NCBI GenBank assembly: GCA_021734105.1
Contig: JAIPJP010000001.1
Location: 36,603 to 100,602 of the forward strand
Direction: 5' to 3'
DNA: 64,000 nucleotides
Source of the DNA: Candidatus Woesearchaeota archaeon
GTDB lineage: Archaea > Nanobdellota > Nanobdellia > Woesearchaeales > SKGA01
Shown: positions 13,187 to 55,237 of the stretch, one piece after another
Numbering within the stretch: position 1 is the first letter of the stretch
Layout of the letters: each line of letters opens with the position of its first letter
Translations under genes and position numbers: made by a program
Notes under the pieces: generated by a model
The model's database searches: none
What the model was told of the DNA's origin: nothing
What the model saw: only the letters and a program-made list of their open reading frames with translations

Positions 13187-13208
13187 AAAAACTAACGAGA
13201 AAATCATT

Positions 13209-15458
13209 ATGATTAAAACAACCACGCAACTAAAATTGTTTTGGGCACTTCTTGTCCTTATCTTGCTAGTTGTGCCGCTTGCTATTGCGCTTGATCAATC
13301 AAGTAGTGGTTATATCTCTGAAACTATTGTGGTGACTGGCGGAACAACTGCAAATTCATCAACGTATCAATCCACGCTTTCTGTTGATACTATTTCAGGA
13401 ACATCGTCTTCAAGCACGTACGATATGCAAATTGGCGCGCAATATATTTTATCAGAGTATCCTCCAGAGATAAGTTCAGTATCTCTTTCAGCCACATCTG
13501 CTGATAACTTCACATCTGATAATCTTTCAGTTTCTTACTCGACGAGTGATAATGATAGTAACATTGTTTATGCTATTACTGATTGGCGTGAAAGCAGTGC
13601 AAGTATTGCAGTCCTCAACATGCCGTTTAACACAAGAGTTACAGACCTCGGCTACGAAGTTAAAGATTTCACGAGTTATAATAATCCTGGAGTGTTTGCA
13701 AGCGCTGCAACGCAGCCTTCATGGACGTCAAGTGGTAAAGTCGGTGGCGCGTACACGTTTGATGGTGGTGATTATTTTTCTGTTGCTGATGATGATAATT
13801 CGTTGGATGTAACAACTGATTTCACGATTACGTTTTGGATGAATGCTAATGACTTAATAACTTTAAATCCGAATATTATTTCAAGAAATGGTGGTGGAGG
13901 GTATGAACCTTGGCGAGTAGAATTTACTAACGCGCCTAATGTTCGTTTAATTATTGCAAACACAACAACAAATCGTGATTTCTTATTAAATTATGCACAT
14001 GGTTTAAACACTGGTTCTTGGCATCATGTCGCATTAACGTTTGATGATGGTACTGCAGAATTATTTATCAATGGATCTTCAGTTGCAACAGACACGTCTG
14101 CAATAACTGCAGTTCGTGTATCTGGCAGTCCTTTATATGTTGGTGCAAGAACAACGTCAAGTAATTTCTTCAATGGCAGTATTGACGAAGTTCTCATTTT
14201 CAACCGCGTGCTTTCTGAAGATCAGATTGCTCAACTCTATGCGGATAGTAATGCAGGAAAATCTATGGAAACATTATTTTCCAATGAAACGAATTATGCT
14301 GATGTTTGGTCTGTTGCGATAACTCCTGTTGATGAATTTGACGTTGGAGAAACTGTTGTTTCAAACACAGTATCTATTGACGGCGGCACGTTAACTCTTG
14401 TGCATAACAATACCTTTGCAAATAACACGAACGCTCATTCTTTTAATGTCACAGCAGGAGTCTTAAGTTCGTCTGGTCCAAGCGCGATCAAGAACATATC
14501 TATAACTAATGATAATGGAACGTGTGTCAATGTTGTCAACACAACGTCAGGAAATTATTTCAACACAACATTCACGTGTACGGGAACACCTTTCATCGGC
14601 AGTTTAGTAAATATTACTTTCTGTAGTTATTCTGATGATTGTGTAGAAACGCCTGCAACAAGTAACGCATATCCTAATCAAATACCTAGTATGGGTAGTC
14701 TTCTTGCTCCTAGTGATGGTAATTCTTCGTTAATTAATCGTAATGTTACGTTTAATTGGAGTGCTGCATCTGATGATGATAATGATGTTTTAACATATCA
14801 TATTAATGTGACGAATATGAATGGTACGGACGTATCGGTTCTTTGCCCGGGTTTTACAAACACTATCCCCGCGCCAAACACCTCGTATAACCATCACACG
14901 CTTCTAAGCACATATCTTGAGTGCAATCCAATTACTAATGAAGGCTATCGTTATTTCTGGCAAGTTAAGGTGTGTGATTCGTGGAATTGTTCTGATTACA
15001 CAACGGCATGGAATTTTTCAATTACTGATTATTTAAATTTCGCTTTAACAACTGATGCAATTAATTTTACAACCGTAGGTCAATTGTATCCTAATGATGT
15101 AGAGAATACTACTGATGATGTTCCTCCCCCGTTTGTTGCGGAGAACACAGGGAATATTTATTTAAACGTTACTAATGTAACTGCAACAGCCTTATGGAAT
15201 GCTGTCGGTCTTGATACGTTTTATTATCAATACAAAGCAGCTAATACTTCAGAAGCAAATTCTTTTTCATGGTCTACTTCGCAAACAAGTTGGAACAATT
15301 TTACGGGTGTGACAAATACTGATGTGCTCATTGGCAATTTGAGTTTCCTTGATGATAGCGATACTGCTGAAATTGATGTACAAGTTACTGTTCCTGCAAT
15401 AGAAGATGCAGGTCAAAAATCAAGCACGATTAATTTTTACATAACTATGGCTGGTTAA
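13209..15458 (+). CDS. Secreted protein with a LamG/concanavalin-A-like domain. It carries a very large number of N-glycosylation sequons.
   Basis: I chose the ATG at 13209 ('MIKTTTQLKLFWALLVLILLVVPLAIALD', a signal peptide) rather than the upstream extension that overlaps the previous gene. The LamG signature reads 'TITFWMNANDL...WHHVALTFDDGTAELFINGS...LYVGAR...FNGSIDEVLIFNRVLSEDQIAQLY'. There are more than 30 N-x-S/T sequons. Confidence 0.7.
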   Translation: MIKTTTQLKLFWALLVLILLVVPLAIALDQSSSGYISETIVVTGGTTANSSTYQSTLSVDTISGTSSSSTYDMQIGAQYILSEYPPEISSVSLSATSADNFTSDNLSVSYSTSDNDSNIVYAITDWRESSASIAVLNMPFNTRVTDLGYEVKDFTSYNNPGVFASAATQPSWTSSGKVGGAYTFDGGDYFSVADDDNSLDVTTDFTITFWMNANDLITLNPNIISRNGGGGYEPWRVEFTNAPNVRLIIANTTTNRDFLLNYAHGLNTGSWHHVALTFDDGTAELFINGSSVATDTSAITAVRVSGSPLYVGARTTSSNFFNGSIDEVLIFNRVLSEDQIAQLYADSNAGKSMETLFSNETNYADVWSVAITPVDEFDVGETVVSNTVSIDGGTLTLVHNNTFANNTNAHSFNVTAGVLSSSGPSAIKNISITNDNGTCVNVVNTTSGNYFNTTFTCTGTPFIGSLVNITFCSYSDDCVETPATSNAYPNQIPSMGSLLAPSDGNSSLINRNVTFNWSAASDDDNDVLTYHINVTNMNGTDVSVLCPGFTNTIPAPNTSYNHHTLLSTYLECNPITNEGYRYFWQVKVCDSWNCSDYTTAWNFSITDYLNFALTTDAINFTTVGQLYPNDVENTTDDVPPPFVAENTGNIYLNVTNVTATALWNAVGLDTFYYQYKAANTSEANSFSWSTSQTSWNNFTGVTNTDVLIGNLSFLDDSDTAEIDVQVTVPAIEDAGQKSSTINFYITMAG

Positions 15459-17272: not shown

Positions 17273-18982
17273 GTGAATTCAATATTTTTTGATGTGGGAA
17301 TTATTATTATTCTTGCAACCGTTGGCGGTTTTCTAGCTAAAGCGCTCAAACAACCGCTTATTTCTTCGTATATTATTATGGGTGTTATTCTTGGTCCCGT
17401 ACTTCATTTTGTAGCTGACATGACTTTAGTGGAGGTGCTTTCTGATATTGGTATTGCGTTTTTATTATTTATTGTAGGTGTTGAGCTTGATGTAAAGCGA
17501 CTCAAAGATATTGGGGCTATTGCTACTGGCGGTGCACTTTTGCAAATGGTGTTATCGTTTCTTTTGGGTTTTGGTGTTTTTAGATTGCTTCATTTTTCGC
17601 AAATGCAAGCAGTTTTTGCAGGGATTATTTTGATGTTCTCTTCAACGATGGTGGTTATTAAATTATTAGTTGATAAATCGCAATTAGAAACGCTTCATGG
17701 AAGAATTGTTGTAGGAACGTTATTAATGCAAGATGTTATTGCAGTCATGCTCTTAAGTGTTCTGTCTCGCTCCGGAGACTTTTCTATTGGTGGTTTAGTG
17801 TTCTCGCTTTTTTTGGGCGCTCTTGTTTTTGGCATTGCGTGGTTTTTTTCTAAAGTTTTATTTCCGCAGTTATTTCGTTTCGCAGCGCGCTCTCAAGAAT
17901 TATTTTTTTTACTAAGTATTTCTGTTTGTTTCCTTTTTGCACTTGCGTTTGAATATGTTGGTCTTTCTATTGCTATTGGTGGTTTTGTAGCTGGTTTAAT
18001 GCTAGGTAACTTACCGTATAACCTTGAAATTATTAGCAAGGTAAAAAACTTGCGTGATTTTTTTGCAACAATATTTTTTGTCTCCATGGGTATTCGTCTT
18101 TCGTTTGATACCTTGTCACAATATACTCTGCCTTTCATTGTTTTACTCGGTCTAACTATTTTTGTGCTTCCTTTCCTTACATTTCTGGTAACGCTTTTTT
18201 TTGGTTATAATCGTCGCGTTGCTTTTTTAACTGCCGTTTCGCTTTCTCAAGTTTCAGAATTTGCACTCATTGCAGTTCATGTGGGTATTGGTGCAGGTCA
18301 TATTGAAGATGGTTTCTTTTCATTAACGATAATGGTAGCGCTCGCGTCTATTATGGCAACTTCTTACTTGGTAAAATATGAAGATAAAATATACAAATTA
18401 TTATTGCCCTTTCTTAAACGGTTGGATAGGGCAGTTCATGTTAATAAGAAACTTATGCATCACGCCCCGCATAAACAACACGATGTGGTGTTAATTGGGT
18501 ATGATAGAACAGGCTATACTATTCTTAAATCCTTGCGCAAGCTTAAGCGGGATGTTATTGTGGTTGATTTTAATCCTGACATTGTCGGGTCTTTAATTGA
18601 GCGTAAAATTCCTTGCTTATATGGCGATATTGGTGATGATGAAGTTTTAGAAGAATTACATTTAGAAGGGGTTGGATTGATTATTTCAACGGTTCCCTCA
18701 CACCAAGATACTATGCTGCTTATTAAGAGAGTTCGTGAAGTAAATAAATCTGCAAAAATTATTGTGACTGCTTATGTGGTTGATGAAGCGTTATCGCTGT
18801 ATGAGGTGGGAGCTGATTATGTTATTGTTCCTCATTTACTGGGTGGAAAGCATGCAGGTGTTTTGCTTGAAGATGTTCATAACGATATTGATTCGCTTAT
18901 CAAGACAAAACTTACTCATATTGGCGAGCTTAAAGCGCATACTGCTCGTCATAGAAAACAATTATCTAAGAAAACTCGTTAA
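17273..18982 (+). CDS. Kef-type monovalent cation:proton antiporter (CPA2 family) with a C-terminal TrkA-N/RCK Rossmann domain.
   Basis: About 12 TM helices are followed by 'VVLIGYDRTGYTILKSL...VIVVDFNPD', a GxGxxG NAD-binding fold. The start is a GTG preceded by 'gaggttgag'. 'ttattataa' lies upstream. Confidence 0.8.
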   Translation: MNSIFFDVGIIIILATVGGFLAKALKQPLISSYIIMGVILGPVLHFVADMTLVEVLSDIGIAFLLFIVGVELDVKRLKDIGAIATGGALLQMVLSFLLGFGVFRLLHFSQMQAVFAGIILMFSSTMVVIKLLVDKSQLETLHGRIVVGTLLMQDVIAVMLLSVLSRSGDFSIGGLVFSLFLGALVFGIAWFFSKVLFPQLFRFAARSQELFFLLSISVCFLFALAFEYVGLSIAIGGFVAGLMLGNLPYNLEIISKVKNLRDFFATIFFVSMGIRLSFDTLSQYTLPFIVLLGLTIFVLPFLTFLVTLFFGYNRRVAFLTAVSLSQVSEFALIAVHVGIGAGHIEDGFFSLTIMVALASIMATSYLVKYEDKIYKLLLPFLKRLDRAVHVNKKLMHHAPHKQHDVVLIGYDRTGYTILKSLRKLKRDVIVVDFNPDIVGSLIERKIPCLYGDIGDDEVLEELHLEGVGLIISTVPSHQDTMLLIKRVREVNKSAKIIVTAYVVDEALSLYEVGADYVIVPHLLGGKHAGVLLEDVHNDIDSLIKTKLTHIGELKAHTARHRKQLSKKTR

Positions 18983-19550
18983 TCCATGCATTCTTTAGTC
19001 GATTGATTTGTTCATGTGTTTTTGCTAGTTTCTCATTTGCTAGGCTTGTAAGAAATTGAATGTATTTTTCCGTTACTAGTAATTTTCCTTCTTGGGCGAG
19101 TGGCGCATCAATTCTTTGTGTGCTTAGTATTTCAACAATGAATCGTTTGCTTGCGCCAAGAATAGTTGTTTTCTTAAATCCGTTTGCTTGAGCAAACTGC
19201 ATGAGTTTATTTGCTGTTGGTAAGTTCTTTGCACATACATGAAAAATAAATCCTTCTTGTCGAAGCCATAGGGTGCTTGCGGGTAATTCTTGTTGAAGTT
19301 GTTGGAGAATTTCTTTTACATCTGCTTGCTCATGCGTGACAAAAAGCCATTCTGCATCTGCTTTATTAAGACTATTATGATCGGTAAAAAGACTAATTCT
19401 TCCAGAGCAAGAGCTTGTGGTATAATAATCGGGATGCTCATTAACAAGGTTAATAAGTTCTTCGAGTCGTTTATCTACAGTGCCTTTTTTAGATTGATCT
19501 GGTTTGTACAACTTCTCAAGTGTTTGTTTTTTTTGTTGCTTAAAATCCAT
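18966..19550 (-). CDS. taw3: Taw3/TYW3-like tRNA wybutosine-pathway methyltransferase homologue.
   Basis: The motif '...EHPDYYTTSSCSGRISLF...' matches my recollection of the conserved S-S-C-S-G-R motif of the TYW3 family. At about 194 aa the size also fits. The 3' end overlaps the convergent Kef gene by 17 nt. Confidence 0.5.
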   Translation of the reverse strand: MDFKQQKKQTLEKLYKPDQSKKGTVDKRLEELINLVNEHPDYYTTSSCSGRISLFTDHNSLNKADAEWLFVTHEQADVKEILQQLQQELPASTLWLRQEGFIFHVCAKNLPTANKLMQFAQANGFKKTTILGASKRFIVEILSTQRIDAPLAQEGKLLVTEKYIQFLTSLANEKLAKTHEQINRLKNAWINEFS

Positions 19551-19921: not shown

Positions 19922-20207
<286 letters not shown>

Positions 20208-20212
20208 ATTAT

Positions 20213-22873
20213 TTACTTACGTGCAAGAACGCTCAGTAGGCCAATGCTAACGCCTAATACTGCAAACACGAGTACTGCTAACACAATAAGATAAGCTCCT
20301 GATTCAGTAAATTTTTCAAATCCTGTTTTTGGTTGCCCAACAATAGTGTTTCCAGTGAGTGGCACCACATTATCGTTGTTATTGTCTGTATCTTCGTCTG
20401 TCGTAGCAGTATTGTCTTTTTCGTCTTCATCTTCATCATCTGTTTGCGTGTTTGTAAAACAAACGACTTCTATAAGCGCGAGTTCTTCATCTGCATCTTT
20501 ACTGATATCGTATTTTACTTCAACGTTAACAATATAGGTATCTTCTTGCAAGTTGTCAGGTAAGTCTATTCTGAATGTTCGGGTAAGTTCTTCGCCTTCA
20601 TTTAAACTCAAATAGGTTTTCTTCTCATTCCAGTCCAGTTCACTTTTATCGCTGTATGCATAAATAAATATCTCGTCTTGATCAGAGGTTCCATAGTTTC
20701 GAAGGACAACATCCATATCAACGCTTCTTGCATTACAATCAACAGGGTTTCTTTCAAAAGATATATCTTTAATTCGAATATCGTTTGAATCTCTTTCAAT
20801 ATCAATGGTAATTTCCCATTCATCATAATGGTCAAATGATGGTTCATCATCTCGATCATCTTCTCCGTATGCTCGAATGAAAATTCTTGTTGTATCGTCA
20901 TCAAGTTCCTCATCAACGGTGAAACTTACAGTAACGGTTGCTTCTTTGTTTCCTTTGATATCGACTTCTTGTGATGTTTCATCGATATCCCAGTTATCAT
21001 CAGTTACGTCTACATATGCATCTCTAATATAATCATCGCTGCTACTGTATTTGTTACTTAATTCAATGTGTAGAGTTACTTTATCACCTTCAACAACATC
21101 ATTGTATGTGCTTCCGTCATTAAGATCATCTTCATCATTATTATTATTAATTTCGATATCGATATCAGTTATTTCTAGTTCACTTTCTGCTTCTAGATTA
21201 ATGGTTGCTTCATCAGTTACTGTTGTTGTGCCATCAAGTCCTGAGAGATAAATTTCTGCAACTGTAGTTTGTTCTGCATCTGTATCTTCTGGGATGGTTA
21301 GTTGCACGGTAACGGTTGCTTCTTCACCAGGAGCAAGAGTGTTTTTGTTAATACCAACAATGCCATTAAATTTTTCGTGTAAATCACTGCCATAACTATT
21401 AGTGAGGGTTACTTGAACGTTAGTTAATGTTCGTGTTCCAGTATTTTTTACTTGAAGCGAGCCACCGTCAGTTGTACCTCTACTAGCACTTCTTCCTCCT
21501 AAATTAAGTTCGTCAACAACGAAGCTAATTTCTGGCGCATCCATTCTTGCTGCAATGCTAAATGAAGTTGTCGTGGTGCTTTCACCATCGTTCACACTTA
21601 CTGTCGCCATTCCAGAATACAAACTTGTTGGAGTCCAAGAAATAATTCCTGTGCTTTCATTAATCATCATGCCAGGAACGCCTGAAATACTGTAGCTGAG
21701 TTCATTGTTCGGTGTTTCTAAATCAGTTGCACTTACAGGGTAAGTAAATTCTTCTCCGATAAGCACTTGTTGATCAGGGATTGCACTTATTGTTGGTGCG
21801 TTGTTGGTAACAACGACTCGTAGATTTCCTGTTGTACTCTCTGCTCCTGCAGGTCCGTAGGTTACAATGTAATCTGCAGTGTAGGTTCCTAAAGCGACAT
21901 CAAGGCCGACTTGAGCAAGTCCAAAAGTTACCTCTCGACTACTGCTTGGGTTTAGTGTAAATGAACTTGGGCCAATACTAACGCTGCCTCGATTAATGGT
22001 TTTTGTTCCATCGGTTGTAAGCGTAAGGTCTTCAGTGAGACTAATGGTTGCGCTTGTTGGAACATTTCCACTTGAAGTAAGGCTTATAACTGTAGTATCG
22101 CTTGTACCTCGAGCAACATTGATGTTAACTTGTGGTGCGTTCACATTGTATGTTTTAGCACCAATACTTGTAGTTGTAGTAATTAAATTATTAGCTAAAT
22201 CATCATCGTTTGTGGTGTATTCTGCTTGCGCAACATAACTTCCTGCGCCATTGTATGTATGTTCAAAAATAATGTTTTGGCTTTCGCCTACAGCAAGTGC
22301 TGGCATGTCGGCAGTTTCTACTGCGCTACCATCAGCAAAGTCAAAACTGATTGCGTCAGCTGCGCCTGCGAAATGTTGATTACCATTATTGTTTACTCTT
22401 AGGGTGAATGTTATTTCATCTTGTCCTTCAATTGCTTGTGTTGGGGCATGAGTTAAGCTATCTAAACTAATATCGTTAACTGCGTCAATAATATGTAGAT
22501 TAAGTGTTTTGTTATCATTAGTTGCGTCTTCATCACCGCCTGTATACGAGACAAGAACAGTGTAATCTCCTGCTGCGGTATAGGTGTGTGTTCTTGGCAC
22601 GGCCATAGTTTCTGCGCTTGCAAGTGTTGGCAAATTGATTGTTTCAGTATTACTATTACCATAATCAATAAGAAGTACGTTTGTACCGCCGGTGTATGTT
22701 TCATTACCAACGTTTTCAACTATAATATCGAGCATACCTGCAACGTCGGTGTAAAATGGATTTGAAGGGTTTTCTGCAAGTGTAGTAACGCTAATGTCTG
22801 CTGCTGCACTTACCATTCCTAGTAATAATAAACTCATCAAAACCATTATTGTTGGAAATTTATTATTTTTCAT
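20213..22873 (-). CDS. Large cell-surface protein of 886 aa with a signal peptide, Ig-like and acidic repeat regions, and a C-terminal TM anchor.
   Basis: The N-terminus 'MKNNKFPTIMVLMSLLLLGMVSAAAD' is a signal peptide. The central region is rich in Thr, Ser and Val beta-strands. An acidic stretch reads 'TQTDDEDEDEKDNTATTDEDTDNNND'. The C-terminus 'AYLIVLAVLVFAVLGVSIGLLSVLARK' is a TM helix. Confidence 0.7.
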   Translation of the reverse strand: MKNNKFPTIMVLMSLLLLGMVSAAADISVTTLAENPSNPFYTDVAGMLDIIVENVGNETYTGGTNVLLIDYGNSNTETINLPTLASAETMAVPRTHTYTAAGDYTVLVSYTGGDEDATNDNKTLNLHIIDAVNDISLDSLTHAPTQAIEGQDEITFTLRVNNNGNQHFAGAADAISFDFADGSAVETADMPALAVGESQNIIFEHTYNGAGSYVAQAEYTTNDDDLANNLITTTTSIGAKTYNVNAPQVNINVARGTSDTTVISLTSSGNVPTSATISLTEDLTLTTDGTKTINRGSVSIGPSSFTLNPSSSREVTFGLAQVGLDVALGTYTADYIVTYGPAGAESTTGNLRVVVTNNAPTISAIPDQQVLIGEEFTYPVSATDLETPNNELSYSISGVPGMMINESTGIISWTPTSLYSGMATVSVNDGESTTTTSFSIAARMDAPEISFVVDELNLGGRSASRGTTDGGSLQVKNTGTRTLTNVQVTLTNSYGSDLHEKFNGIVGINKNTLAPGEEATVTVQLTIPEDTDAEQTTVAEIYLSGLDGTTTVTDEATINLEAESELEITDIDIEINNNNDEDDLNDGSTYNDVVEGDKVTLHIELSNKYSSSDDYIRDAYVDVTDDNWDIDETSQEVDIKGNKEATVTVSFTVDEELDDDTTRIFIRAYGEDDRDDEPSFDHYDEWEITIDIERDSNDIRIKDISFERNPVDCNARSVDMDVVLRNYGTSDQDEIFIYAYSDKSELDWNEKKTYLSLNEGEELTRTFRIDLPDNLQEDTYIVNVEVKYDISKDADEELALIEVVCFTNTQTDDEDEDEKDNTATTDEDTDNNNDNVVPLTGNTIVGQPKTGFEKFTESGAYLIVLAVLVFAVLGVSIGLLSVLARK

Positions 22874-22908
22874 TTTTTATCACAACCTCCTGTTGTTCAA
22901 TTAATTAT

Positions 22909-24951
22909 TTATTCTTTAATGAATTTTCCTATTTTAGATTCGTTATCTTGTTGCACACGGATAATGTATGTGCCTTTGTTTAAATCAGTCACATCGATTT
23001 GTTCATTAACTTGATAGTCGCCTTGTTTAAGGACTTGTCCTTGTATGTTCATGATGTGATACACTCCTGGCAAACCCATTTGCACGTATTGTGTTGCTGG
23101 GTTTGGATAAGGAAGTAGCTTATTATTTTTTTGAAGTTTTGTTTCAATTCCTGTTGCGGGTGTCACTAAAATGGTTGTGTCCATATCAATTGCTTGACCA
23201 TTATCAGTAACAAATAATTCGTTTGTTGTTGCTTCATAATTTTCATCTTGTTGGTCAAGAATAAATGTTCTTGCAAGCACATTAATAGTATCTGCGCTAT
23301 AACTAATTTGTCCAAAACTATCGGTAGTTCGTTGAATAGTTTCTTTGCCATCTTGAATATTAACAGGTAAATTCGTTATTGGCTCGTTTGTTGCGCTATT
23401 AAGATACGTTACTTGGAATCCATGTTGTCGATTTCTATTTAGGTATGCAGTAACTTCTGTGGTATCTCCTTTAGCAACTAAAGCTTGTGCAACAAGTGCT
23501 TGGTAGTTTTCTTCAGGCATTCCTATGATGTTAAAATCAATACTATCGACAGCTTCATTTTCTGGTTGGTTAAAACTAGTAAAAACGGTATCATTTGCAA
23601 CACTGCTGGTATATTGTCCTATAACATCTTGTGTTGTTGAATTAATAAATTGAACAGTAAATGGAATTGCCGCGCTATCTTCTGCGCTACGAACTAAAAA
23701 GTTTACACCATAATCTCCAAGTATTCTATCTATGGTAAATATTGAATCTGCATCGATTCTTTCTCCGTTGTCAGTTGTTACTATTTCATTTGTACTTGGA
23801 ACAATACCTTGATTGTTTTGATTAAGAATAAATGAATATGTTGGCATATTTAGTGCTTCTTGGATATGCGTTATCATACCGTTTTCATCAGTAACTTTTT
23901 GAACAATTTCGTTTCCATTATTTATTTTTATAGGGATGTATGCTGCTGGTTGGTTGTCATCTGCATAACGATATGTAGCGGTGAATCCGTGTTCTCGAAT
24001 TCTATCCAGTACTGCGTTAATACCGACGGTTCCATTTGCAACGCCGCTAAAATTAATGTTTTGTCCAACAAATAAACTATCTGGATTTCCATTTACAGTT
24101 AATACTAGCGAATCATAGTTGTTTCCTGCTTCTGTAGTAAAACTCATGTTTGCTTGACCTTGTTCACTAGTTACGTGGTCTAATGTATCGGTGCCATTAA
24201 GTAGTATTGCGTTAAACGGGATAAGATTTCCATTTTCAGCACTCGTTGCTTGGACATTAACGCCGTATGTTTCCATGAGTTTATTTGTTATTTCTGTAAA
24301 GGTGGTATCTCCTTTAACAAAGGAAATTGTTTTTTTGATTGGTTCGTAGTTTTCTGCTAGAATTTCTAATTCTGCATTAAATGATGAAACTTTTTTTGTG
24401 AAGTCATTAAAGACAATGTTATTGTCTGTAATCTCTGGCGTAAAAAGTTGATTATTTCCTGTATTTAGTTTTGCGCTTGTTACAGGTATTGGGTTTCCTG
24501 CTGAGTCAGTAACGTTAATTACTGCACTAAAGGTATAATTGTCAAAAACAATTTCATGTAATGCTCGTCGTAATCCTTTTTGTGTAGTAATGGTATCGGG
24601 GAGTATTGCGAGTTTGAATTGTTCGTTGTTTTCAAATCCAGCGAGTGCATCGTTGCTAATTTTTGCACTATCTTCTGCGATTGCAACATACGCATTACCT
24701 GGTAGCATGTTTGTTTCATTAACGCCGACGTTTTTGTAGAATAAGGTTGAATCAGTGTCTTTAACAAATCCGTTGCCAACTAAGGTTTGTGTATTTTGTT
24801 CGGTAAAATTATTCGCTGTCATGAGCGAATCAGTTGTTGTTTGGACGTTTGGATTGTTTAAAGTAAGCGTTTGAGCCTGAGCTGTTGTTCCTGTTGCAAG
24901 GCCTACTGTGATGAGTGCTGCTCCAATAATATTTTTTAATGTTGATACCAT
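22909..24951 (-). CDS. Secreted protein of about 680 aa with a bacterial-type signal peptide and a C-terminal domain resembling the T9SS sorting tail.
   Basis: The start was chosen at 'MVSTLKNIIGAALITVGLATGTTAQA', which is preceded by 'gaggga'. The C-terminal approximately 70 aa read 'LLPYPNPATQYVQMGLPGVYHIMNIQGQVLKQGDYQVNEQIDVTDLNKGTYIIRVQQDNESKIGKFIKE'. This matches the T9SS C-terminal-domain pattern as I recall it (YPNPA...G.Y.....G..V......ID.S.L..G.Y.V.V......K..K.IK). Confidence 0.65.
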   Translation of the reverse strand: MVSTLKNIIGAALITVGLATGTTAQAQTLTLNNPNVQTTTDSLMTANNFTEQNTQTLVGNGFVKDTDSTLFYKNVGVNETNMLPGNAYVAIAEDSAKISNDALAGFENNEQFKLAILPDTITTQKGLRRALHEIVFDNYTFSAVINVTDSAGNPIPVTSAKLNTGNNQLFTPEITDNNIVFNDFTKKVSSFNAELEILAENYEPIKKTISFVKGDTTFTEITNKLMETYGVNVQATSAENGNLIPFNAILLNGTDTLDHVTSEQGQANMSFTTEAGNNYDSLVLTVNGNPDSLFVGQNINFSGVANGTVGINAVLDRIREHGFTATYRYADDNQPAAYIPIKINNGNEIVQKVTDENGMITHIQEALNMPTYSFILNQNNQGIVPSTNEIVTTDNGERIDADSIFTIDRILGDYGVNFLVRSAEDSAAIPFTVQFINSTTQDVIGQYTSSVANDTVFTSFNQPENEAVDSIDFNIIGMPEENYQALVAQALVAKGDTTEVTAYLNRNRQHGFQVTYLNSATNEPITNLPVNIQDGKETIQRTTDSFGQISYSADTINVLARTFILDQQDENYEATTNELFVTDNGQAIDMDTTILVTPATGIETKLQKNNKLLPYPNPATQYVQMGLPGVYHIMNIQGQVLKQGDYQVNEQIDVTDLNKGTYIIRVQQDNESKIGKFIKE

Positions 24952-25293
24952 GTGTAACTCCCTCTTATTATTTTTTTTCTTGGTTATTCTCTTCGCTTCC
25001 ACAACGAACACTGCCCTGTTGTCACTATGAAGTGAGATATTATATATAAACGTTTCTATATCTGGTGTTTGGGGCTACATAAATTGCTTTAGGAGTACTT
25101 TTTTTTGCTTGTTTTTGCTTGTTTTTGCTCGTGTAGCTCCTAACTCAAAAAAACTTCAAAGGAGTTAGGCAAACGATTTTGAACAACACCCTCAAAACAC
25201 AAGTTTTAAATATCACATAAAGTATGTTAGTAGTGGTTTTTGTAAACTGGGAGATATTTATCTCTATACAAACAGCGTAAGGTGACACAAAAT

Positions 25294-26430
25294 ATGGAGA
25301 ATGAACAATTCACGACATTGGTAAATACCCTTTTAGGTAATAATCTGGCTTCAAGCCCGTCAGAGGCACGTAGAATGGCTGAAGAAATGATTGGCACAAG
25401 CAATAAAGTACAAGATTCTTTTAAGAAAGAAAATCATACATATATGATTCGTAATTTTACGCCGCGAGAGGAGGTTGTAGAGCAAGTATCCTCTGTAGTT
25501 GAAGCTGAAGTAGAAGCAGAAAACACCGGTTTACCCGAGTTACAACCAACGGCTCCAAGAAACAATGATGTTTTGCAACATAATATTGAAGCATTACGTG
25601 CGCGGGCAATTCATCCTCAACCAGTTGCTGTGCAAGTTGATTTTCAAACGCCGCAATTTGACGCTCGACAAGAAATTGCATCGCAAGTAGCAGCGCCAGT
25701 TTCTGAATATGATGCGGGACCATCAGAACAATTAGACCAGCTAAATCAACCAAACCACTCAAATCAAGTAGAACAATCAGACCAGGTAGACCAACAAGAA
25801 CGCGTCGACCAATTACCAGCGTCATCTCTAACAGAAGATCTAGCGGCTAATTTTCAAGTAAATATTCCGGGTGTTGATACAAATCAACCCCTTAATTCTT
25901 TTGATCTTAGTGGCGCATCACACACGCCTCAAGCGGTCGAAGTGCCAACTCGGGAAAAAGACGATTTTATATCGGTGAGATTAGAGGCTTCTAGCGAGCA
26001 GACAACATCTCGTCTGCAAGCTGAAGTCCAACCACGGCCGCAACCTCAAGAAGAATTGCAACAAGCAGTTCCGCAGCCACCGCAGCCACCGCAGCAAAAG
26101 CCGGAGTCGCAGCCACAGCCACAATATGCTACGCAACAATTCTCTTCTGCGTCTTTGCAGCCTGAATCTTCGCTTGCATCGCAAGAATCATCTTCTGAAG
26201 CGCCGCAAGAATTATCTCAAGAAAAAATATCAAATCCAGCTTCACAAGAAGGTCTTGCTACGGGTTTTCCTCAGCAACAAACACCTGCTCCGCAGTCAGA
26301 TTCTGAGTCTGCTTCTCAACCTACTTCTCAGTCGGCTCCTGAGCAGAAACGAGATTTGTGGACGCCTGAAGAACGTAAACTCAAAGAAGACTGCGATCTT
26401 TCCAAAGTGTTTAATTTTTCAGGAAAATAA
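25294..26430 (+). CDS. Low-complexity protein rich in Gln, Pro, Ser and Glu. Function unknown.
   Basis: The ATG at 25294 follows the GTG used by the ORF track. The sequence contains 'PQPPQPPQQKPESQPQPQYATQQ...' and has a long acidic, Q-rich C-terminal half. Confidence 0.5.
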   Translation: MENEQFTTLVNTLLGNNLASSPSEARRMAEEMIGTSNKVQDSFKKENHTYMIRNFTPREEVVEQVSSVVEAEVEAENTGLPELQPTAPRNNDVLQHNIEALRARAIHPQPVAVQVDFQTPQFDARQEIASQVAAPVSEYDAGPSEQLDQLNQPNHSNQVEQSDQVDQQERVDQLPASSLTEDLAANFQVNIPGVDTNQPLNSFDLSGASHTPQAVEVPTREKDDFISVRLEASSEQTTSRLQAEVQPRPQPQEELQQAVPQPPQPPQQKPESQPQPQYATQQFSSASLQPESSLASQESSSEAPQELSQEKISNPASQEGLATGFPQQQTPAPQSDSESASQPTSQSAPEQKRDLWTPEERKLKEDCDLSKVFNFSGK

Positions 26431-26561
26431 CTTCTTAGTAAGTTTTTTTCTTTTTTTTTCTTTTTTTTTATTTCTTATTTTTTTCTTATTTATTTTTTAT
26501 TTCTTTTATTCCATCAAATATTCAATTAGAACTCGAAGTTATTTTGTTGAATGTTATGTTT

Positions 26562-27284
26562 CTAAATATCCTCAAGCGTGCCGTCGCGTAGAGCCCATAA
26601 ATCTTCTAAATTTAGCATGCTCAGACCTTCTACATCCATATCATCATAACCCATACGCTCACACATCGTGTTAAGATACATATCGATGAAGGGGAAATCT
26701 AGCAGTCCTGCGAGGTTGATAGTGTTATCGACAAAATAATAGAATGTTTTATCTGGATATTGCTCTTCTAGCTTTGCTGCCATATATGCTTTTTGTTGTC
26801 CTAGCTTTAGAGTGATAAGCACGCCAATGTTTTTGGACATGATAAATTTTGCATACGCTCCCTTAACTTTTTTGCGAATAGTTTGAACAAGTTCTTTAGT
26901 ATATACAGCATCTTTTCCTGTTATAGGATCGTAGGTATACACAGCAATATCATTTCGTAAGAGCAATGCTTTGGGATGAAAAAGTCCTGTGCCAATATAG
27001 AGCGCATCAGGTGTAAGTGTTATGTTTGTAGAACAGCCAAGTAATTGTCCTTCATAGGGCGTATGTCGTGGTTTTTCTAAGGACACTTCTTTACCAGCAT
27101 CAGTAAGTTGTTTTTTAATAATAGGAAGCGAATCTAAAAATTGCACGGTCGTAAAAAGAATGATTTGGTTTGGCAGCGTATGTACTAATTCTTGTGGTAA
27201 AGCTATTTGTTTGTTGTATCGTGCTTCAACATGCAGGACGTCCATAAATACAAGAACGAGGTAGTTGTTTTTAAATATTGACAA
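26562..27284 (-). CDS. dph2: Dph2-like diphthamide synthase homologue, unusually short at about 230-240 aa.
   Basis: 'QLLGCSTN' and 'IGTGLFHPKALLL' resemble the archaeal Dph2 motifs '...GCNYS' and 'IGSGIFHPLGL'. The first start is a TTG and the first ATG is 13 codons in. A stop lies 9 codons upstream, so no in-frame extension is possible. Confidence 0.5.
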   Translation of the reverse strand: MSIFKNNYLVLVFMDVLHVEARYNKQIALPQELVHTLPNQIILFTTVQFLDSLPIIKKQLTDAGKEVSLEKPRHTPYEGQLLGCSTNITLTPDALYIGTGLFHPKALLLRNDIAVYTYDPITGKDAVYTKELVQTIRKKVKGAYAKFIMSKNIGVLITLKLGQQKAYMAAKLEEQYPDKTFYYFVDNTINLAGLLDFPFIDMYLNTMCERMGYDDMDVEGLSMLNLEDLWALRDGTLEDI

Positions 27285-27482
27285 TTTTTTCTTTGCAAAG
27301 GTTATGTTTTATCTAGGTGCTAAGTTGTAGATGCATGCGACCCCGCTCACCTGTGAAAAAGAGAATATTTTTGGCATGCCAGTCAGCTTCGCTTACTCTG
27401 CACAGCTGGGCTGGTCGACGAAACTTTTATAAACGCCTTTAAATAGAATTTGGTTATACTATTATATAATAGGTGAGAGGTT

Positions 27483-30400
27483 GTGAAGGGTCGTCAAGTA
27501 TTATTGTTTGTTCTGCTGCTTTTCTTCTTATCAGGATTCGCCAGTGCCCTTGAAATTTCTAGTTTAGAGGTTACTTTAGGCACGTCTACGTATCCTTTAG
27601 AACATATTGCGCTTAAACATCCCATTGTGGCTTCTATTCACGTGAATTTTTCTAGTGATGAAGCTATACAACAGGTCACAGCAGATCTTTCAGCACTCTC
27701 AGAAAATCCTATGATTTCTCCCTCTTATAAAGATGTAGATTTTGTTTGCACGAGTATTAAAGATAATGAAACAGATGCTATTCTTGGGGCGGCATGTACC
27801 TATTCCACTGTTGAAATTCATATGAATTCGCTTGCTGCACAAATAAACTTCTTTGTAACACTAGATGATAACTCCCAAGAACTTAGTAGTGAAATAACGT
27901 TTTTAGAGGACGCGCAAGGTCCACACATTTCTGATATCAAAACAGAATTTTGTGAGGGAACGTTATGTTATCTTTCTTCTGGCTCTTCAACTGAAGTGCA
28001 AATTGGCGTTGTTAATGACATTGGTACGATGCACTTAAATAATATATATTATAAAACGGGCAATAGCGGTATTAGTAAAGTTTTTCGTTGCCAAGACGCC
28101 ATTTGTTATGGTTATTATTATGATACTTGCGAATCAGGCGCGCCGATTACTTTTAAATTAACAAGTGGTGGTGCAGGTCGTCCGAGTGGTGATGATGCGG
28201 GTAATCCCGTGACAGGTGTTACTGAAACAATTTTTTATTGTGATGAGTTCTCACCAGGGGATGTTGCATTACCTACTGAGCTTTTAACTGTTGATGGTGA
28301 GCATCGATTGCCAAGTGAAGCATTACAGTATCGCGAGCAACAAGGAGTGTTTGTTGATGTAGAGCATAACAAACGACTTACAAATCCTGTAAAAAGCGAA
28401 ACTATTATTTTATGGTCTTTAGTCACTGAAGATATTTCTGGTATTAACGCATTTGTGAACACTTCAGAACTTAATAATGATAATAATTTACAACAGGGGA
28501 CGTGCGAAGAAATAACAAATGGCGTGTTTAATTGTACGTGGGCAATAACTGATATTCAACCAGGAGATCATCAAGTGTATTTATATTTCACCGATAATGC
28601 CGGTCACCCGTCAAAATTTCTATTGTCTTCTGGCGAAAAATCTTCTTGGCTTCCCATAACAATTTCTGTTGATGATGTGGTGCTCGCTGATGCTGGCCCG
28701 ACACCAAAATTCTTTAAAGATATTGTTGCAAAACCGTTATCTGCAGGTGGGTATAATCGAGTCTCGCTTGGTCTTGCGCAAGAAAATGGTTTAGACTATC
28801 CGCTCTATGTAGAATACACCTTACAACGTTCAAGTATTGGTGGCGATATTGAAGCAATTCATACGTTTATTGATGAAGCAGATAGTTATATGTGCACTAT
28901 TACGAGTGCTGATAAAGAAAAAGTTGCGCAAATTACGCCTGCAAATTTTAAATTCTCCTTAAATCCCAACAGCCGCGTTAATGAGAAAAGTTTGCTGTTA
29001 ATAAAAATTAATGAAGAAGTTAATAATCTTCCCGACCAGTTTAGTTTGCATTGTAATATGAGTGTTATTGTGCGGCAAAGTCAAGAAAAAGTGTATCAAG
29101 AACCTGCAGTGTTCACCATAGAAATTCCTCTTAAACTTCGCAATAGTGCGCTTACTGGAACGCCGGGTAAAGCGTTTGCTGATAAAATTATTGAGCAGGA
29201 ATTAGCTGTTGAAAAATGGAATACTGCCTTAGGTGCGCTTGATAAAATTACTGCCGAATTATTTAAGTGGTGTAGTTATGCGCAAGGATTATCGCAAATT
29301 GAAGCAACAGGCGCAGGTATTGAAGCATTAGGATATACTATTGAATTATATGATGAGCCCACAGGAGAAGCTGTTGCAAAAGGCGGTAGTTTTGTAAATA
29401 GTATTGGTTCAGAGCCGCTAAGCGTGTTTGATAGTTTAGGTATGCCTCCTAAGGTTTCGCAGTTCTTGGGTATTGCTTGTGAAGTTGGGACGTGTTCTAA
29501 TGACGAATTATTCAAAGATGTTGGTTTAGCTAATGGTTGGTTTGCTGATGGTGGTGATGGGGTAAATACTTTTTTAACTGATATGGCTTCACCGGCTAGC
29601 AAGAAAGGTTTCCTTTCAGGTGTTGCTAATGATTTTTCTTCAGAATTGCTTGATGGCGTCACGGTGCCTAGCTCTCAAGATAGTATTGTTGGTGCGGTGA
29701 TGAATAAATGTCTTCCTGGTGTTATTTATAATGTGAATAAATATCGTACGATTGAATGCGAAACCTTAACGTGTTACAAACAAGCATCTTTGTATGGTGT
29801 TGATGTGTCCACATGTGATGAAGGTCGCTCAAGTTCTATTTGTATGAATGTTGTGGGCGAATTGTATGAAGCAGTTCCTTACACAAGAATTCGTGATAAT
29901 CTTTTGGAGAATACTGGTGCGATGATTGAAGCCGGGGCGCCAAAAATGTTGCAAATTGTTTTTGATAATGCGTTTTGTAAAAAATGGGCAAATGATGATG
30001 GCCTTCCAGAAAATGGTCTTCCCGATTGGAAGGCCGCTAAAATTATTAATGTTCTTGCCTGTAAAATCCCTAAATCTCTTGGTGATATAATGTATCAGTC
30101 TGAGAAATCACAAAATACATTTTATTATCCTCCGGTTACTAACACGTGTAACACGGCAAGTTGTAATGGTGATTTAGAAACGTGCGGTTATGATACTTCT
30201 TATTTTCAAACGGATACAAAAAAGCCTTTGTACTATTACTGGAATTTAATTGAAACCGAACCTAACGAAGTGCAGCCTCATTACAAAACAAAGGATATTT
30301 CCAAAACGTGGGAAAAATATAAAGAAGTTCAAGATGAATGGGCTGCTATCGAATCAAAAATTAAATTCGATGAAACCGAAGACGGATACAAGTATGATCC

Positions 30401-44470: not shown

Positions 44471-45004
44471 TTATTTCTTTCCAAAGGTATAGCTAATAAA
44501 CGGTGTTTGCGCAACCCATTCAGTCTTACCTTTTTTTGCTTTGTTGGCTTCAGGAAGAAAAATACCTTGATAGACGTAGAGTGTGCCTGTAAATTCGTTA
44601 TGTAGTTTTTTAAGAAATGTATCACTGAACGGTTGGTCTGCATAGCTAAATAGGACATCAACATCATGAAAGTCAAATTCTTCAAAATCTCGCTGAAAGA
44701 AACGTGCTGTGCTATTAAGTTTCTTGGCATGTGTTTTACTTTCTGCAATAAGTGCGGGGTCGAATTCTACGCCGCTTGCCCGAGTGAAAAAACTAGCTAT
44801 AATCGCTACTCGTCCATCGCCGCTACCCAAATCAACGACGTGTTCTGCTTCTTCTAATTTAATTTTTTTAAAGAATTCAAGAAGCGTTGTTGTATCGCTC
44901 ACGCCAAAAATACCTTTAGTTGTATCGTGCACGTAGGTACCTTTTTCTTTTTTTTCGGTATCTAGTTTTGCAAAATAGTTGAGTATGTCTTGCATAAAGG
45001 GCAT
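44471..45004 (-). CDS. Small class-I SAM-dependent methyltransferase.
   Basis: Motif I reads 'VVDLGSGDGRVAIIA'. Confidence 0.6.
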   Translation of the reverse strand: MPFMQDILNYFAKLDTEKKEKGTYVHDTTKGIFGVSDTTTLLEFFKKIKLEEAEHVVDLGSGDGRVAIIASFFTRASGVEFDPALIAESKTHAKKLNSTARFFQRDFEEFDFHDVDVLFSYADQPFSDTFLKKLHNEFTGTLYVYQGIFLPEANKAKKGKTEWVAQTPFISYTFGKK

Positions 45005-45049
45005 AATTGGAATACAGATTTATATACTATGGGTTTTTCCTTTATAAAT

Positions 45050-51821: not shown

Positions 51822-52004
51822 TCAGCTGGTTTTTTTAACGAGTTGTTCTGGTGTTGCATGAAAACTATATTTGAGTGTGAGGTGTGGTGGTGGCGCTCGA
51901 AGTAAGGCTCGGTGCACGTCAAATGCTTCGCTTACTATTGCTCGAAGATGCTCAAGATATGCTTTAGCTTCACCTTGTATTTCAAATGAGATGTTGTATT
52001 TCAT
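51822..52004 (-). pseudogene. N-terminal fragment of 60 aa resembling a 2H phosphoesterase (LigT/ThpR-like). It is translationally coupled to the upstream nuclease gene through an ATGA overlap.
   Basis: '...HRALLRAPPPHLTLKYSFHATPEQL' carries an H-x-T-x motif preceded by an Arg-rich stretch, as in the first half of 2H enzymes. At 60 aa the ORF is less than half the length of the family and lacks the second HxTx motif. Confidence 0.3.
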
Positions 52005-53470: not shown

Positions 53471-53618
53471 TTTGTTGGTTATTGTACATTTGTTTTGTAT
53501 TTTTTTATTAATGATGCTTCTTAATTTAATTTGGATACTTATTTGAATCATAAACTACTTTGTAGTCTGACCTTTACAGTAGTTCAAAACTTTTTAATAC
53601 TTTGTTCAACTACGAATT

Positions 53619-54779: not shown

Positions 54780-54811
54780 TGTTGATTATGTATTATAATT
54801 TCACCTTATAA

Positions 54812-54915
54812 ATGTTTGCTTTATTATAAGTTCCTTTATAAACGCCCTTATAGTTACATCGTTTATTATAAATCGAAGTTGATCATGTTGCTTTATTATA
54901 AGTTCCTTTATAAAT
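54812..54915. promoter_or_regulatory. Two copies of a 30-nt direct repeat, 'atgtt(t)gctttattataagttcctttataaa', separated by about 43 nt and lying upstream of fic.
   Basis: The repeats are at 54812-54842 and 54886-54915 and differ by a single T indel. Each contains TATA-like 'ttattataa' and 'tttataaa'. A further 'tttattataaat' lies in the spacer. Confidence 0.6.
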
Positions 54916-55237
54916 CCCTTTATAATTTTCGTTTGTACTCAGTCACATCTTGATTGAGCAAGCCATTCTTTGAATGATTTTAAGGATGTACTATTTTTTA
55001 AATACGTTACGAGAGATTGTCTAGTGAGATTTAAGTGCTTTTAACCCTCAAAAAAGCTTAAATAGTTTCTAATCTCTTTTTATTCAAACCAACTGCTGGG
55101 GAGTTCGTCAGGTTAAAGTCCTGAAGGGCAAACCAGGGTAGCGGCACTCTTCGTAGTGTCTTTTGGTTTTTCTTTCCGAAAATTCTTCGAATTTACTGCA
55201 GAAGAGCTTTTTAATTGGTTGTTTGACTTGTTTCTTT

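What the first reader, a model, noticed from the sequence alone, without database searches (positions are those of the whole stretch)
22909..24951. T9SS (Por)-type C-terminal sorting domain and a bacterial-style AQA signal peptide in an otherwise archaeal-looking context
The last approximately 70 aa, 'LLPYPNPATQYVQM...GVYHIMNIQGQVL...IDVTDLNKGTYIIRVQQDNESKIGKFIKE', fit the Por secretion-tail pattern that I associate with Bacteroidota T9SS cargo. Nearby genes look archaeal or eukaryote-type (dph2-like, Nog1-type, taw3-like). One reading is horizontal acquisition from a bacterial neighbour or host. Another is a homologous beta-sandwich used differently. A third is that the contig is not archaeal at all.
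Basis: partly seen in the sequence, partly recalled or inferred. Interest (0 to 1): 0.55.

Follow-up and report, generated by a model that had tools for sequence, protein, structure and literature searches.

The report
Bacterial-type secretion tail on archaeal protein
A secreted surface protein of a tiny DPANN-type archaeon really does end in the domain that Bacteroidota use as a type IX secretion tag; the gene is native and conserved there, so the domain must do another, still untested job.

Summary
The ORF 24951→22909 (minus strand, 680 aa) ends in a domain that passes both curated models: PF18962 scores 38.6 bits (cut-off 27) and TIGR04183 scores 44.1 bits (cut-off 23). It sits at the extreme C-terminus. 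Its AlphaFold model (pLDDT 90) is closest to solved T9SS substrate CTDs (8glk_D, 8qb1).

The context is archaeal: Taw3/TYW3, Dph2 and NOG1 are in the window, and NCBI labels the protein Candidatus Woesearchaeota.

The gene is native, not a recent import or a chimera:
- Its codon usage matches the other minus-strand genes best of all (r=0.98).
- A 48%-identical ortholog lies in the same Dph2–X–CTD protein–S-layer-like–TYW3–Na/H exchanger order in a second archaeal assembly.
- The CTD is among the most constrained parts (ω≈0.2).

Only the CTD has bacterial relatives. Every nearest hit that could be identified is Bacteroidota or another diderm. The passenger is lineage-specific.

No T9SS component is in the window, and only one of about eight secreted proteins here carries the tail. 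The most likely reading is a bacterial CTD-family β-sandwich co-opted as a terminal surface module, perhaps docking to the co-transcribed S-layer-like protein. NCBI already auto-annotates it, and I found no paper discussing it. Interest is moderate.

The parts
22909..24951 (-). Gene for the 680-aa secreted protein with a C-terminal T9SS type-A CTD-family domain (stop codon 22909-22911)
   Evidence: ORF list. Identical to the NCBI protein 'T9SS type A sorting domain-containing protein [Candidatus Woesearchaeota archaeon]'. The 495-aa ortholog is 48% identical, overall dN/dS ~0.31.
24871..24951 (-). Signal peptide, aa 1-27 (MVSTLKNIIGAALITVGLATGTTAQA|Q)
   Evidence: Read from the sequence. Same small-x-small cleavage motif as the other secreted proteins of the window. 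Least conserved part versus the ortholog (38% identity, omega ~0.8). No predictor was run.
24538..24870 (-). Conserved N-terminal domain, aa 28-138, no family match
   Evidence: 54% identical to the ortholog, with the lowest omega estimate (0.09; dS 4.17 for this segment, saturated, so unreliable). No Pfam, NCBIfam or PDB match.
23158..24537 (-). Five beta-rich repeats of ~90 aa (R1-R5, aa 139-598). R2R3 (aa 228-412) and R4R5 (aa 413-598) form a tandem duplication.
   Evidence: The two halves align at 34% identity, E 2e-28. Only sub-threshold Pfam hints: PEGA, FecR_C, MG4. A repeat profile finds nothing in PDB. The ortholog lacks the R3+R4 block.
23119..23157 (-). Linker, aa 599-611 (TGIETKLQKNNKL)
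   Evidence: Low pLDDT (65-69) at the N-terminal end of the CTD model. 31% identity to the ortholog.
22912..23118 (-). T9SS type-A CTD-family beta-sandwich, aa 612-680 (YPNPA ... GTYIIRV ... KIGKFIKE)
   Evidence: PF18962 38.6 bits against cut-off 27, TIGR04183 44.1 bits against cut-off 23. AF2 pLDDT 90; Foldseek top hits 8glk_D (TM 0.77, rmsd 2.1 A) and 8qb1. 49% identical to the ortholog, omega ~0.20.
24958..24964 (-). Shine-Dalgarno-like GAGGGAG, 6 nt upstream of the ATG
   Evidence: Read from the sequence.
25043..25050 (-). Candidate archaeal TATA box TTTATATA, ~92 nt upstream of the ATG
   Evidence: Read from the sequence. Inference only.
20213..22873 (-). Downstream, probably co-transcribed S-layer-like protein (886 aa: signal peptide, CARDB/PKD domains, C-terminal TM helix). 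Proposed docking partner.
   Evidence: 35-nt gap with GGAGGT at 22885-22890. CARDB, PKD and FixG_C hits. NF033506 putative S-layer protein at 83 bits, below its cut-off of 110. The same adjacency occurs in L001. C-terminal TM helix.

Best explanation
The gene encodes a Sec-exported protein of a DPANN (Woesearchaeota-labelled) archaeon. The protein has no Cys or Trp, is rich in Asn and Thr, and is beta-rich. Its layout is: signal peptide, a lineage-specific N-domain, five ~90-aa beta repeats, a short linker, and a genuine member of the T9SS type-A C-terminal-domain sequence and fold family.

The CTD was most likely captured long ago from an FCB-group bacterium and fused to an archaeal passenger. 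It has since been inherited vertically and kept under purifying selection.

The organism has a single membrane and, as far as can be seen, no T9SS. So the CTD cannot act as an outer-membrane export tag. It most likely works as a terminal Ig-like surface module. My specific proposal is that it holds the otherwise anchor-less protein on the cell surface by docking non-covalently to the envelope, probably to the S-layer-like protein encoded 35 nt downstream in the same conserved gene pair.

Shown: domain identity, fold, native status, synteny and constraint. Inferred: Sec export, co-transcription, bacterial origin of the domain, and the docking role.
For: Domain identity:
- Both curated HMMs are passed.
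- A CTD profile hits solved T9SS CTDs by sequence (7pzj, 8glk, 8glj, 8qb1, 5hfs).
- The AF2 model (pLDDT 90.3) is closest to 8glk_D and 8qb1_A.

Archaeal and native:
- Taw3, Dph2 and NOG1 are in the window, and the NCBI label is Woesearchaeota.
- GC is uniform.
- Codon-usage correlation with the other minus-strand genes is 0.981, the highest of all genes tested.

Vertical inheritance and constraint:
- L001/L003 carries the same order Dph2, Q-rich protein, CTD protein, CARDB/S-layer-like, TYW3, Na/H exchanger.
- L007 bridges the scaffold gap in L001.
- Whole-gene omega is ~0.31 and CTD omega is ~0.20, at 49% identity.

Bacterial centre of the domain:
- 169 of 171 exhaustive-search hits are CTD-only.
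- Every named or context-identifiable hit is Bacteroidota or another diderm.
- The archaeal CTDs sit inside bacterial CTD diversity.

Not a general sorting tag here:
- Only one CTD is found in a six-frame scan of 64 kb that encodes at least 8 secreted or large surface proteins.
- No T9SS family appears in any ORF of 150 aa or more.

Link to the S-layer-like gene:
- A 35-nt gap with a strong SD, no C-terminal TM anchor in the target against one in the neighbour, and the adjacency kept in both genomes.
Against: - Nothing tests docking directly. The adjacency is seen in only two related genomes and could be plain synteny.
- dS is saturated (1.3-4), so the omega values are rough.
- The CTD could be cleaved off, or could serve folding or solubility rather than attachment.
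- Only 64 kb of the genome was examined, so T9SS-like or PorU-like genes elsewhere are not excluded by my data.
- The AF2 model rests on an alignment of bacterial CTDs and so leans towards that fold.
- The direction of transfer is inferred from abundance, not from a resolved tree.
Confidence: 0.6

Rival explanations
1. Relic without function. The CTD came with an old bacterial gene or fragment and simply persists at the end of a fast-evolving surface protein.
For: There is no T9SS gene in the window. It is the only CTD protein in 64 kb. The passenger evolves fast (40-56% identity).
Against: The CTD is better conserved than the adjacent repeats: omega ~0.20 against 0.30-0.43. The family's hallmark residues (YPNP, G-x-Y, KFIK) are kept in both orthologs after synonymous sites have saturated. 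A useless 70-aa tail would be expected to decay or be lost, whereas a 185-aa repeat block did change between the two lineages.
Confidence: 0.2
2. True sorting signal for an unknown archaeal machinery. On this reading the CTD is recognised after Sec export, cleaved by a PorU-like (C25/sortase-like) enzyme, and the protein is covalently attached to an envelope glycan, lipid or S-layer. That would be an archaeal analogue of the last steps of T9SS.
For: The CTD is constrained and strictly C-terminal. The protein has no other anchor. Archaeal C25 peptidases annotated with a Por C-terminal sorting domain are listed for Thermoprofundales (PMC6461988).
Against: Only one of the many secreted proteins here carries the tag, whereas T9SS organisms average tens per genome (established knowledge, TIGR04183 description). 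The neighbouring surface proteins use TM anchors or nothing. No C25 or PorU-like gene is in the window.
Confidence: 0.1
3. Cross-domain use. The archaeon lives attached to a T9SS-bearing bacterium, and the CTD engages the partner's PorV/SprA or surface.
For: DPANN archaea are commonly episymbionts (established knowledge). The model is closest to a CTD solved in complex with the F. johnsoniae translocon (8glk_D).
Against: There is no evidence of a bacterial host. Known DPANN hosts are archaea. The T9SS recognises the CTD from the periplasmic side, which a foreign cell's surface protein cannot reach (established knowledge of T9SS topology).
Confidence: 0.03
4. Artefact. The contig is bacterial, or it is a chimeric assembly that joined a Bacteroidota gene to archaeal DNA.
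For: The window also holds bacterial-type genes: a DnaB-type helicase and a CshA/DbpA-like DEAD helicase.
Against: Taw3 and Dph2 flank the gene within 4 kb on either side. Codon usage, including the strand-specific bias, is the best match of all genes tested. An independent assembly and a JGI metagenome contig carry the ortholog in the same order. The passenger has no bacterial homolog.
Confidence: 0.02

Closest known systems
T9SS type-A C-terminal domains of Bacteroidota cargo (TIGR04183 / PF18962), e.g. F. johnsoniae NucA and FspA CTDs (8glk_D, 8glj_D), T. forsythia mirolase CTD (8qb1), P. gingivalis RgpB CTD (5hfs)
   Same: - HMM scores above both curated cut-offs.
- Position at the extreme C-terminus, behind a Sec signal peptide and a multi-domain passenger.
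- Hallmark residues YPNP, G-x-Y and a K-rich last strand.
- Predicted seven-strand-type beta-sandwich, superposing at 2.1-2.7 A.
   Different: - The host is an archaeon with, by established knowledge, no outer membrane.
- No SprA, PorV, PorU or PorK-N gene is seen in 64 kb.
- It is a single copy rather than tens per genome.
- Cleavage and A-LPS-type attachment are untested and have no obvious substrate here.
Archaeal proteins auto-annotated with a Por/T9SS sorting domain, e.g. extracellular C25 (gingipain-like) peptidases of Thermoprofundales/MBG-D (PMC6461988, transcript table)
   Same: An archaeal MAG protein, predicted extracellular, carrying a Por-type C-terminal sorting domain annotation.
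   Different: Those have a protease passenger that itself looks bacterial (gingipain family). Here the passenger is a lineage-specific repeat protein. I did not analyse those proteins.
Archaeal surface proteins with C-terminal anchors (TM helix, PGF-CTERM/archaeosortase type), such as the neighbour at 20213-22873
   Same: Sec signal peptide, Ig-like/CARDB/PKD-type beta domains, surface location, Asn/Thr-rich composition.
   Different: The target has no C-terminal hydrophobic helix or archaeosortase-type tripartite signal. It ends in a soluble beta-sandwich instead.

Membership tests
T9SS type-A CTD domain family (TIGR04183 / PF18962) | Sequence match to the curated HMMs above their cut-offs | tested here: met
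   PF18962 scores 38.6 bits against 27. TIGR04183 scores 44.1 bits against 23, with near full-length profile coverage.
T9SS type-A CTD domain family (TIGR04183 / PF18962) | Domain lies at the extreme C-terminus of the protein | tested here: met
   aa 615-680 of 680. The same holds for the ortholog and for nearly all 171 database hits.
T9SS type-A CTD domain family (TIGR04183 / PF18962) | Ig-like beta-sandwich fold like the solved CTDs | tested here: met
   AF2 pLDDT 90.3. Best PDB matches are 8glk_D (TMt 0.77, rmsd 2.1 A) and 8qb1_A. Caveat: the alignment used consists of bacterial CTDs.
T9SS type-A CTD domain family (TIGR04183 / PF18962) | Conserved motifs (PNP near strand 1, G-x-Y, K-rich C-terminal strand) | tested here: met
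   P25, P27, G47, G69 and Y71 are invariant, and N26 and K88 nearly invariant, in the 70-sequence alignment that includes the target. All are kept in the ortholog.
T9SS cargo protein (functional class) | N-terminal Sec signal peptide | tested here: inconclusive
   A typical n/h/c region with AQA|Q is seen by eye. No signal-peptide predictor was available.
T9SS cargo protein (functional class) | Genome encodes the T9SS core (SprA/Sov, PorK/L/M/N or GldK-N, PorV, PorU, PorZ) | tested here: not met
   No such Pfam or NCBIfam family is found in any ORF of 150 aa or more in the 64-kb window. The rest of the genome could not be searched, so 'not met' applies to the window only.
T9SS cargo protein (functional class) | Diderm cell envelope with an outer membrane to cross | not testable with these tools
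   The host is archaeal by its marker genes. No outer membrane is expected, from established knowledge.
T9SS cargo protein (functional class) | Many CTD-bearing paralogous cargoes per genome | tested here: not met
   There is one CTD in a six-frame scan of 64 kb rich in secreted proteins, and one (the ortholog) in the 10-kb L001.
T9SS cargo protein (functional class) | CTD removed by PorU and cargo attached to A-LPS or released | not testable with these tools
   Needs proteomics.
T9SS type-B CTD (TIGR04131) and FlgD Ig-like domain (PF13860), considered as alternatives | HMM match | tested here: not met
   Neither is listed at E<=1 in the NCBIfam or Pfam scans.

The most novel reading that the evidence does not exclude
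The CTD is a working sorting or attachment signal in an organism without a T9SS. After Sec export it would be recognised by an undescribed archaeal machinery that cleaves it and fixes the protein to the S-layer or a glycolipid. Alternatively, it would dock the archaeon to a CTD-binding partner. That would make the CTD an export-independent surface-attachment module and would give a first handle on how anchor-less DPANN surface proteins stay on the cell.
Probability: 0.08. Interest if true: 0.8.

Novelty: new member of a known kind. Interest (0 to 1): 0.38.

Why it matters
T9SS CTDs are treated as a hallmark of Bacteroidota/FCB outer-membrane secretion. Here a well-conserved, natively encoded CTD sits in an archaeon that cannot use it that way. 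This shows that the domain can be kept for a job other than T9SS targeting. That matters in two practical ways:
- Genome annotation: 'T9SS type A sorting domain-containing protein' should not be read as evidence of a T9SS, or of bacterial contamination, in archaeal MAGs.
- DPANN biology: these organisms depend on surface proteins for contact with their hosts.

The conserved pairing with an S-layer-like gene gives a concrete hypothesis to test. The finding is not a new kind of system. NCBI's pipeline has already labelled the protein, and the interest lies in the unexplained function.

Tried and rejected
- Full-length homolog search in 5.8 billion proteins found only the protein itself. A CTD-only query found nothing. 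The word index was too insensitive in both cases.
- An exact-sequence look-up of the target's contig failed.
- Single-sequence AF2 of the whole protein was useless (pLDDT 32), so the passenger fold remains unassigned.
- A profile of the five repeats against PDB gave no significant hit. The PEGA, MG4 and FecR_C Pfam hints are all below threshold, so I do not name the repeat fold.
- The P0003 hit (Streptococcus MucBP protein, 20 short stretches) was treated as repeat or compositional similarity and not followed.
- The apparent extension of similarity upstream of the CTD in some bacterial hits (e.g. P0133 from Chryseobacterium) is weak and gappy in the pairwise alignment. Those proteins show only Por_Secre_tail in Pfam. 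I therefore rejected 'whole-gene transfer of a recognisable bacterial cargo'.
- I did not attempt a phylogeny of the 70-aa domain. Pairwise identities (28-45%) leave no resolving power.
- Codon usage first looked deviant against all genes (r=0.79). This turned out to be a strand effect (r=0.98 against same-strand genes).
- The GTDB and JGI scans found only the one related lineage, so no wider ortholog set could be built.
- Literature searches for T9SS with DPANN, with Woesearchaeota and with archaeon found no paper on the subject.
Full report
**What is there**

The finding's coordinates hold an ORF on the minus strand, from ATG 24951 to stop 22909-22911, 680 aa. A GAGGGAG motif lies 6 nt before this ATG, and a TTTATATA element lies about 92 nt upstream. 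The in-frame GTG at 25011 is less likely to be the start, because the ortholog begins at the same Met.

The protein has no Cys and no Trp, and is 11% Asn and 11.5% Thr. It begins with a typical signal peptide ending AQA|Q. Aa 28-138 form a domain with no family match. Aa 139-598 are five beta-rich repeats of about 90 aa. Of these, aa 228-412 and aa 413-598 are a tandem duplication (34% identity, E 2e-28). The last 66-69 aa are the feature in question.

**Check of the observation**

- Pfam PF18962 Por_Secre_tail matches aa 615-678 at 38.6 bits (gathering 27, E 1.3e-9).
- NCBIfam TIGR04183 matches aa 615-680 at 44.1 bits (cut-off 23, E 1.5e-11), covering the whole profile.
- No FlgD-type or type-B CTD model appears even at E<=1.
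- A profile of the target plus 69 related CTDs hits solved T9SS CTDs by sequence: 7pzj, 5jvk, 8glk_D, 8glj_D, 8qb1 and 5hfs.
- With that alignment AlphaFold2 gives a confident beta-sandwich (pLDDT 90.3). Its best PDB neighbours are the NucA CTD bound to the Flavobacterium T9SS translocon (8glk_D, TM 0.77, rmsd 2.1 A, 26% identity) and the mirolase CTD (8qb1).
- An HMM built only from 68 non-archaeal CTDs scores the target 102 bits and the ortholog 82 bits, against at most 15 bits for 2000 shuffles. The set was chosen by similarity to the target, so only the ortholog's score is unbiased.

One qualification: the AQA signal peptide is not 'bacterial-style' in any informative sense. The S-layer-like neighbour and four other secreted proteins in the window have the same small-x-small cleavage motifs.

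**Is the context archaeal, and is the gene native?**

- The window encodes TYW3/Taw3 (18966-19550), Dph2 (arCOG04112, 26562-27284) and NOG1 (44990-46039). By established knowledge these families are confined to archaea and eukaryotes.
- NCBI holds the identical protein as 'T9SS type A sorting domain-containing protein [Candidatus Woesearchaeota archaeon]' on a 101.7-kb contig.
- GC is even across the region, 0.35-0.39.
- Codon usage at first looked off (r=0.79 against all genes). The window has a strong strand bias: T-ending codons in plus-strand genes and A-ending codons in minus-strand genes. Against the other minus-strand genes the target correlates at r=0.981, the best of all 25 genes.
- An exhaustive HMMER scan of 1.84 billion representatives found one close relative, P0002. 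Its contig L001 (GCA_964611285.1, also retrieved as L003 from GTDB) carries the same order: Dph2, Q-rich protein, CTD protein, CARDB/S-layer-like protein, TYW3, Na/H exchanger.
- The 100-N gap inside that ortholog is a scaffolding overlap. A JGI metagenome contig (L007) reads straight through it.
- The assembled ortholog is 495 aa and 48% identical. It lacks the R3+R4 block.

By Nei-Gojobori estimates (dS saturated at 1.3-4, so rough), omega against the ortholog is:

| Region | omega |
|---|---|
| Whole gene | 0.31 |
| Repeats | 0.30-0.43 |
| CTD | 0.20 |
| N-domain | 0.09 |

 The neighbouring genes diverge in the expected way: housekeeping genes are 73-84% identical and the S-layer-like protein is 52% identical. 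A chimeric or bacterial contig, and a recent transfer, are therefore excluded as far as these data go.

**Where the domain comes from**

- Of the 171 significant hits in the exhaustive search, all but the ortholog and a repeat-driven Streptococcus hit match only the CTD, at their own C-termini.
- Every hit that could be placed is from Bacteroidota or at least a diderm:
  - the P0010 cluster (Bacteroidota bacterium);
  - P0009, next to a GldD lipoprotein gene;
  - P0007, with an SprB domain and OmpA neighbours;
  - P0008, next to an outer-membrane efflux protein;
  - P0133 from Chryseobacterium;
  - all named proteins among the top 120 of 2465 profile hits.
- The archaeal CTDs are 30-34% identical on average to these bacterial CTDs, which are 28% identical to each other. 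So the archaeal CTDs sit within the family rather than forming a deep sister group.
- The passenger has no homolog outside the two archaeal contigs. The apparent upstream extensions in a few bacterial hits do not hold up.

The simplest history is an old domain-level capture from an FCB-group bacterium onto an archaeal passenger, followed by vertical descent. The direction is inferred from abundance. A 70-aa domain at this divergence cannot give a resolved tree, so I did not build one.

**How it most likely works**

By established knowledge, in T9SS organisms the CTD guides a periplasmic protein through SprA/Sov with PorV. PorU then removes the CTD, and the cargo is released or linked to A-LPS. 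Such genomes carry tens of CTD proteins.

None of that fits here:
- the host is archaeal;
- no T9SS family is found in any ORF of 150 aa or more in the window;
- a sensitive six-frame scan finds a single CTD in 64 kb, although the window encodes at least eight large secreted or surface proteins. Those either carry C-terminal TM helices or carry nothing.

Yet the CTD is among the better-conserved parts of a fast-evolving protein. The target has no membrane anchor. Its stop codon lies 35 nt before the start of an 886-aa protein with a signal peptide, CARDB/PKD domains and a C-terminal TM helix. That protein resembles NCBI's putative S-layer model NF033506 (83 bits, below its cut-off of 110). A GGAGGT motif lies between the two genes, and the pairing is kept in the second genome.

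I therefore propose, at about 0.6 overall, that this is a Sec-exported surface protein whose CTD has been co-opted as a terminal Ig-like module. The more specific idea, that it docks the protein to the S-layer-like partner or the envelope, is the least certain step and is pure inference.

Rivals:
- a functionless relic (0.2; argued against by the constraint on the CTD);
- a real sorting signal read by an unknown archaeal machinery (0.1; argued against by the single copy and by the absence of a PorU-like gene nearby);
- engagement of a T9SS-bearing bacterial partner (0.03);
- an artefact (0.02).

**Comparison with what is known, and novelty**

By every test I could run, the domain is a member of the type-A CTD sequence and fold family. 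The protein should not be filed as T9SS cargo. Two of that class's features, a T9SS core and many paralogous cargoes, were tested within the window and not met. The others could not be tested.

Archaeal proteins with this annotation exist in databases, and one appears in a Thermoprofundales transcript table (PMC6461988). My searches found no paper that discusses T9SS CTDs in DPANN or other archaea. I rate it a new member of a known kind, with moderate interest (0.38). It is a useful caution for annotation and gives a testable lead on DPANN surface biology, but it is not a new system.

**Limits**

- Only two related lineages were available.
- dS is saturated.
- Taxonomy labels are the submitters' own and disagree: Woesearchaeota for the window protein, 'Methanosarcinales' for L001.
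- No signal-peptide predictor was available and no model of the passenger was obtained.
- Only 64 kb of the genome was examined.

Noticed in passing
window 1-64000: GC skew is positive across the whole window (+0.04 to +0.34; two 2-kb bins, 20001-22000 and 26001-28000, dip slightly negative). Codon third positions depend on strand: plus-strand genes are T3-rich (0.31-0.65, mostly 0.4-0.65) and minus-strand genes are A3-rich (0.34-0.54). Any codon-usage test for foreign genes here has to be made per strand.
   Followed up: partly
window 113-10135 (+): A 3340-aa ORF with only ILEI and fn3 Pfam hits and no signal peptide at the listed TTG start. It probably begins upstream of the window. A giant surface protein typical of DPANN genomes.
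   Followed up: no
window 57072-58058 (-): A strong match to the Tam41/Mmp37 family (the mitochondrial-type CDP-diacylglycerol synthase; E 1.3e-87) in an archaeal context, with no NCBIfam model matching.
   Followed up: no
window 38088-39977 (-): A bacterial or phage-type DnaB replicative helicase (DnaB_C plus DnaB N-domain) with a ~140-aa N-terminal extension, sitting among archaeal housekeeping genes.
   Followed up: no
window 52001-56616: A cluster of DUF2779, Fic/DOC, RadC-like JAB and ParE-like toxin genes. GC swings between 0.30 and 0.43 over the wider 52-60 kb stretch. Possibly a mobile or defence islet. The RadC-ParE-Tam41 part (55-58 kb) recurs in a Logan assembly (L008).
   Followed up: no
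window 25282-26430 (+): A divergently transcribed 382-aa protein, low-complexity and rich in Q, P, S and E, with conserved N- and C-terminal ends. It is syntenic and 58% identical in L001 and has no family match.
   Followed up: partly
window 20213-22873 (-): An S-layer-like CARDB/PKD protein with a C-terminal TM helix preceded by ...PKTGFEKFTESG. It scores below threshold against NF033506 'PACE-CTERM-PROT putative S-layer protein'. This may be a lineage-specific C-terminal sorting signal.
   Followed up: partly
window 23158-24270 (-) versus L001/L007: The 185-aa R3+R4 block of the target is absent from the ortholog, which indicates unequal recombination between the internal repeats. In L001 the same region is broken by a spurious 100-N scaffold gap with duplicated flanks.
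   Followed up: yes
L001 / L003 (CAZSZY010000024.1): The syntenic contig is titled 'uncultured Methanosarcinales archaeon', while the window protein is labelled 'Candidatus Woesearchaeota archaeon'. At least one submitter's taxonomy is probably wrong.
   Followed up: no
window 13131-15458 (+): A LamG/concanavalin-like secreted protein with a weak match (57 bits, cut-off 410) to NF052521 'TafC family fimbrial protein'. It lies within a run of large secreted proteins at 10.6-16.7 kb.
   Followed up: no
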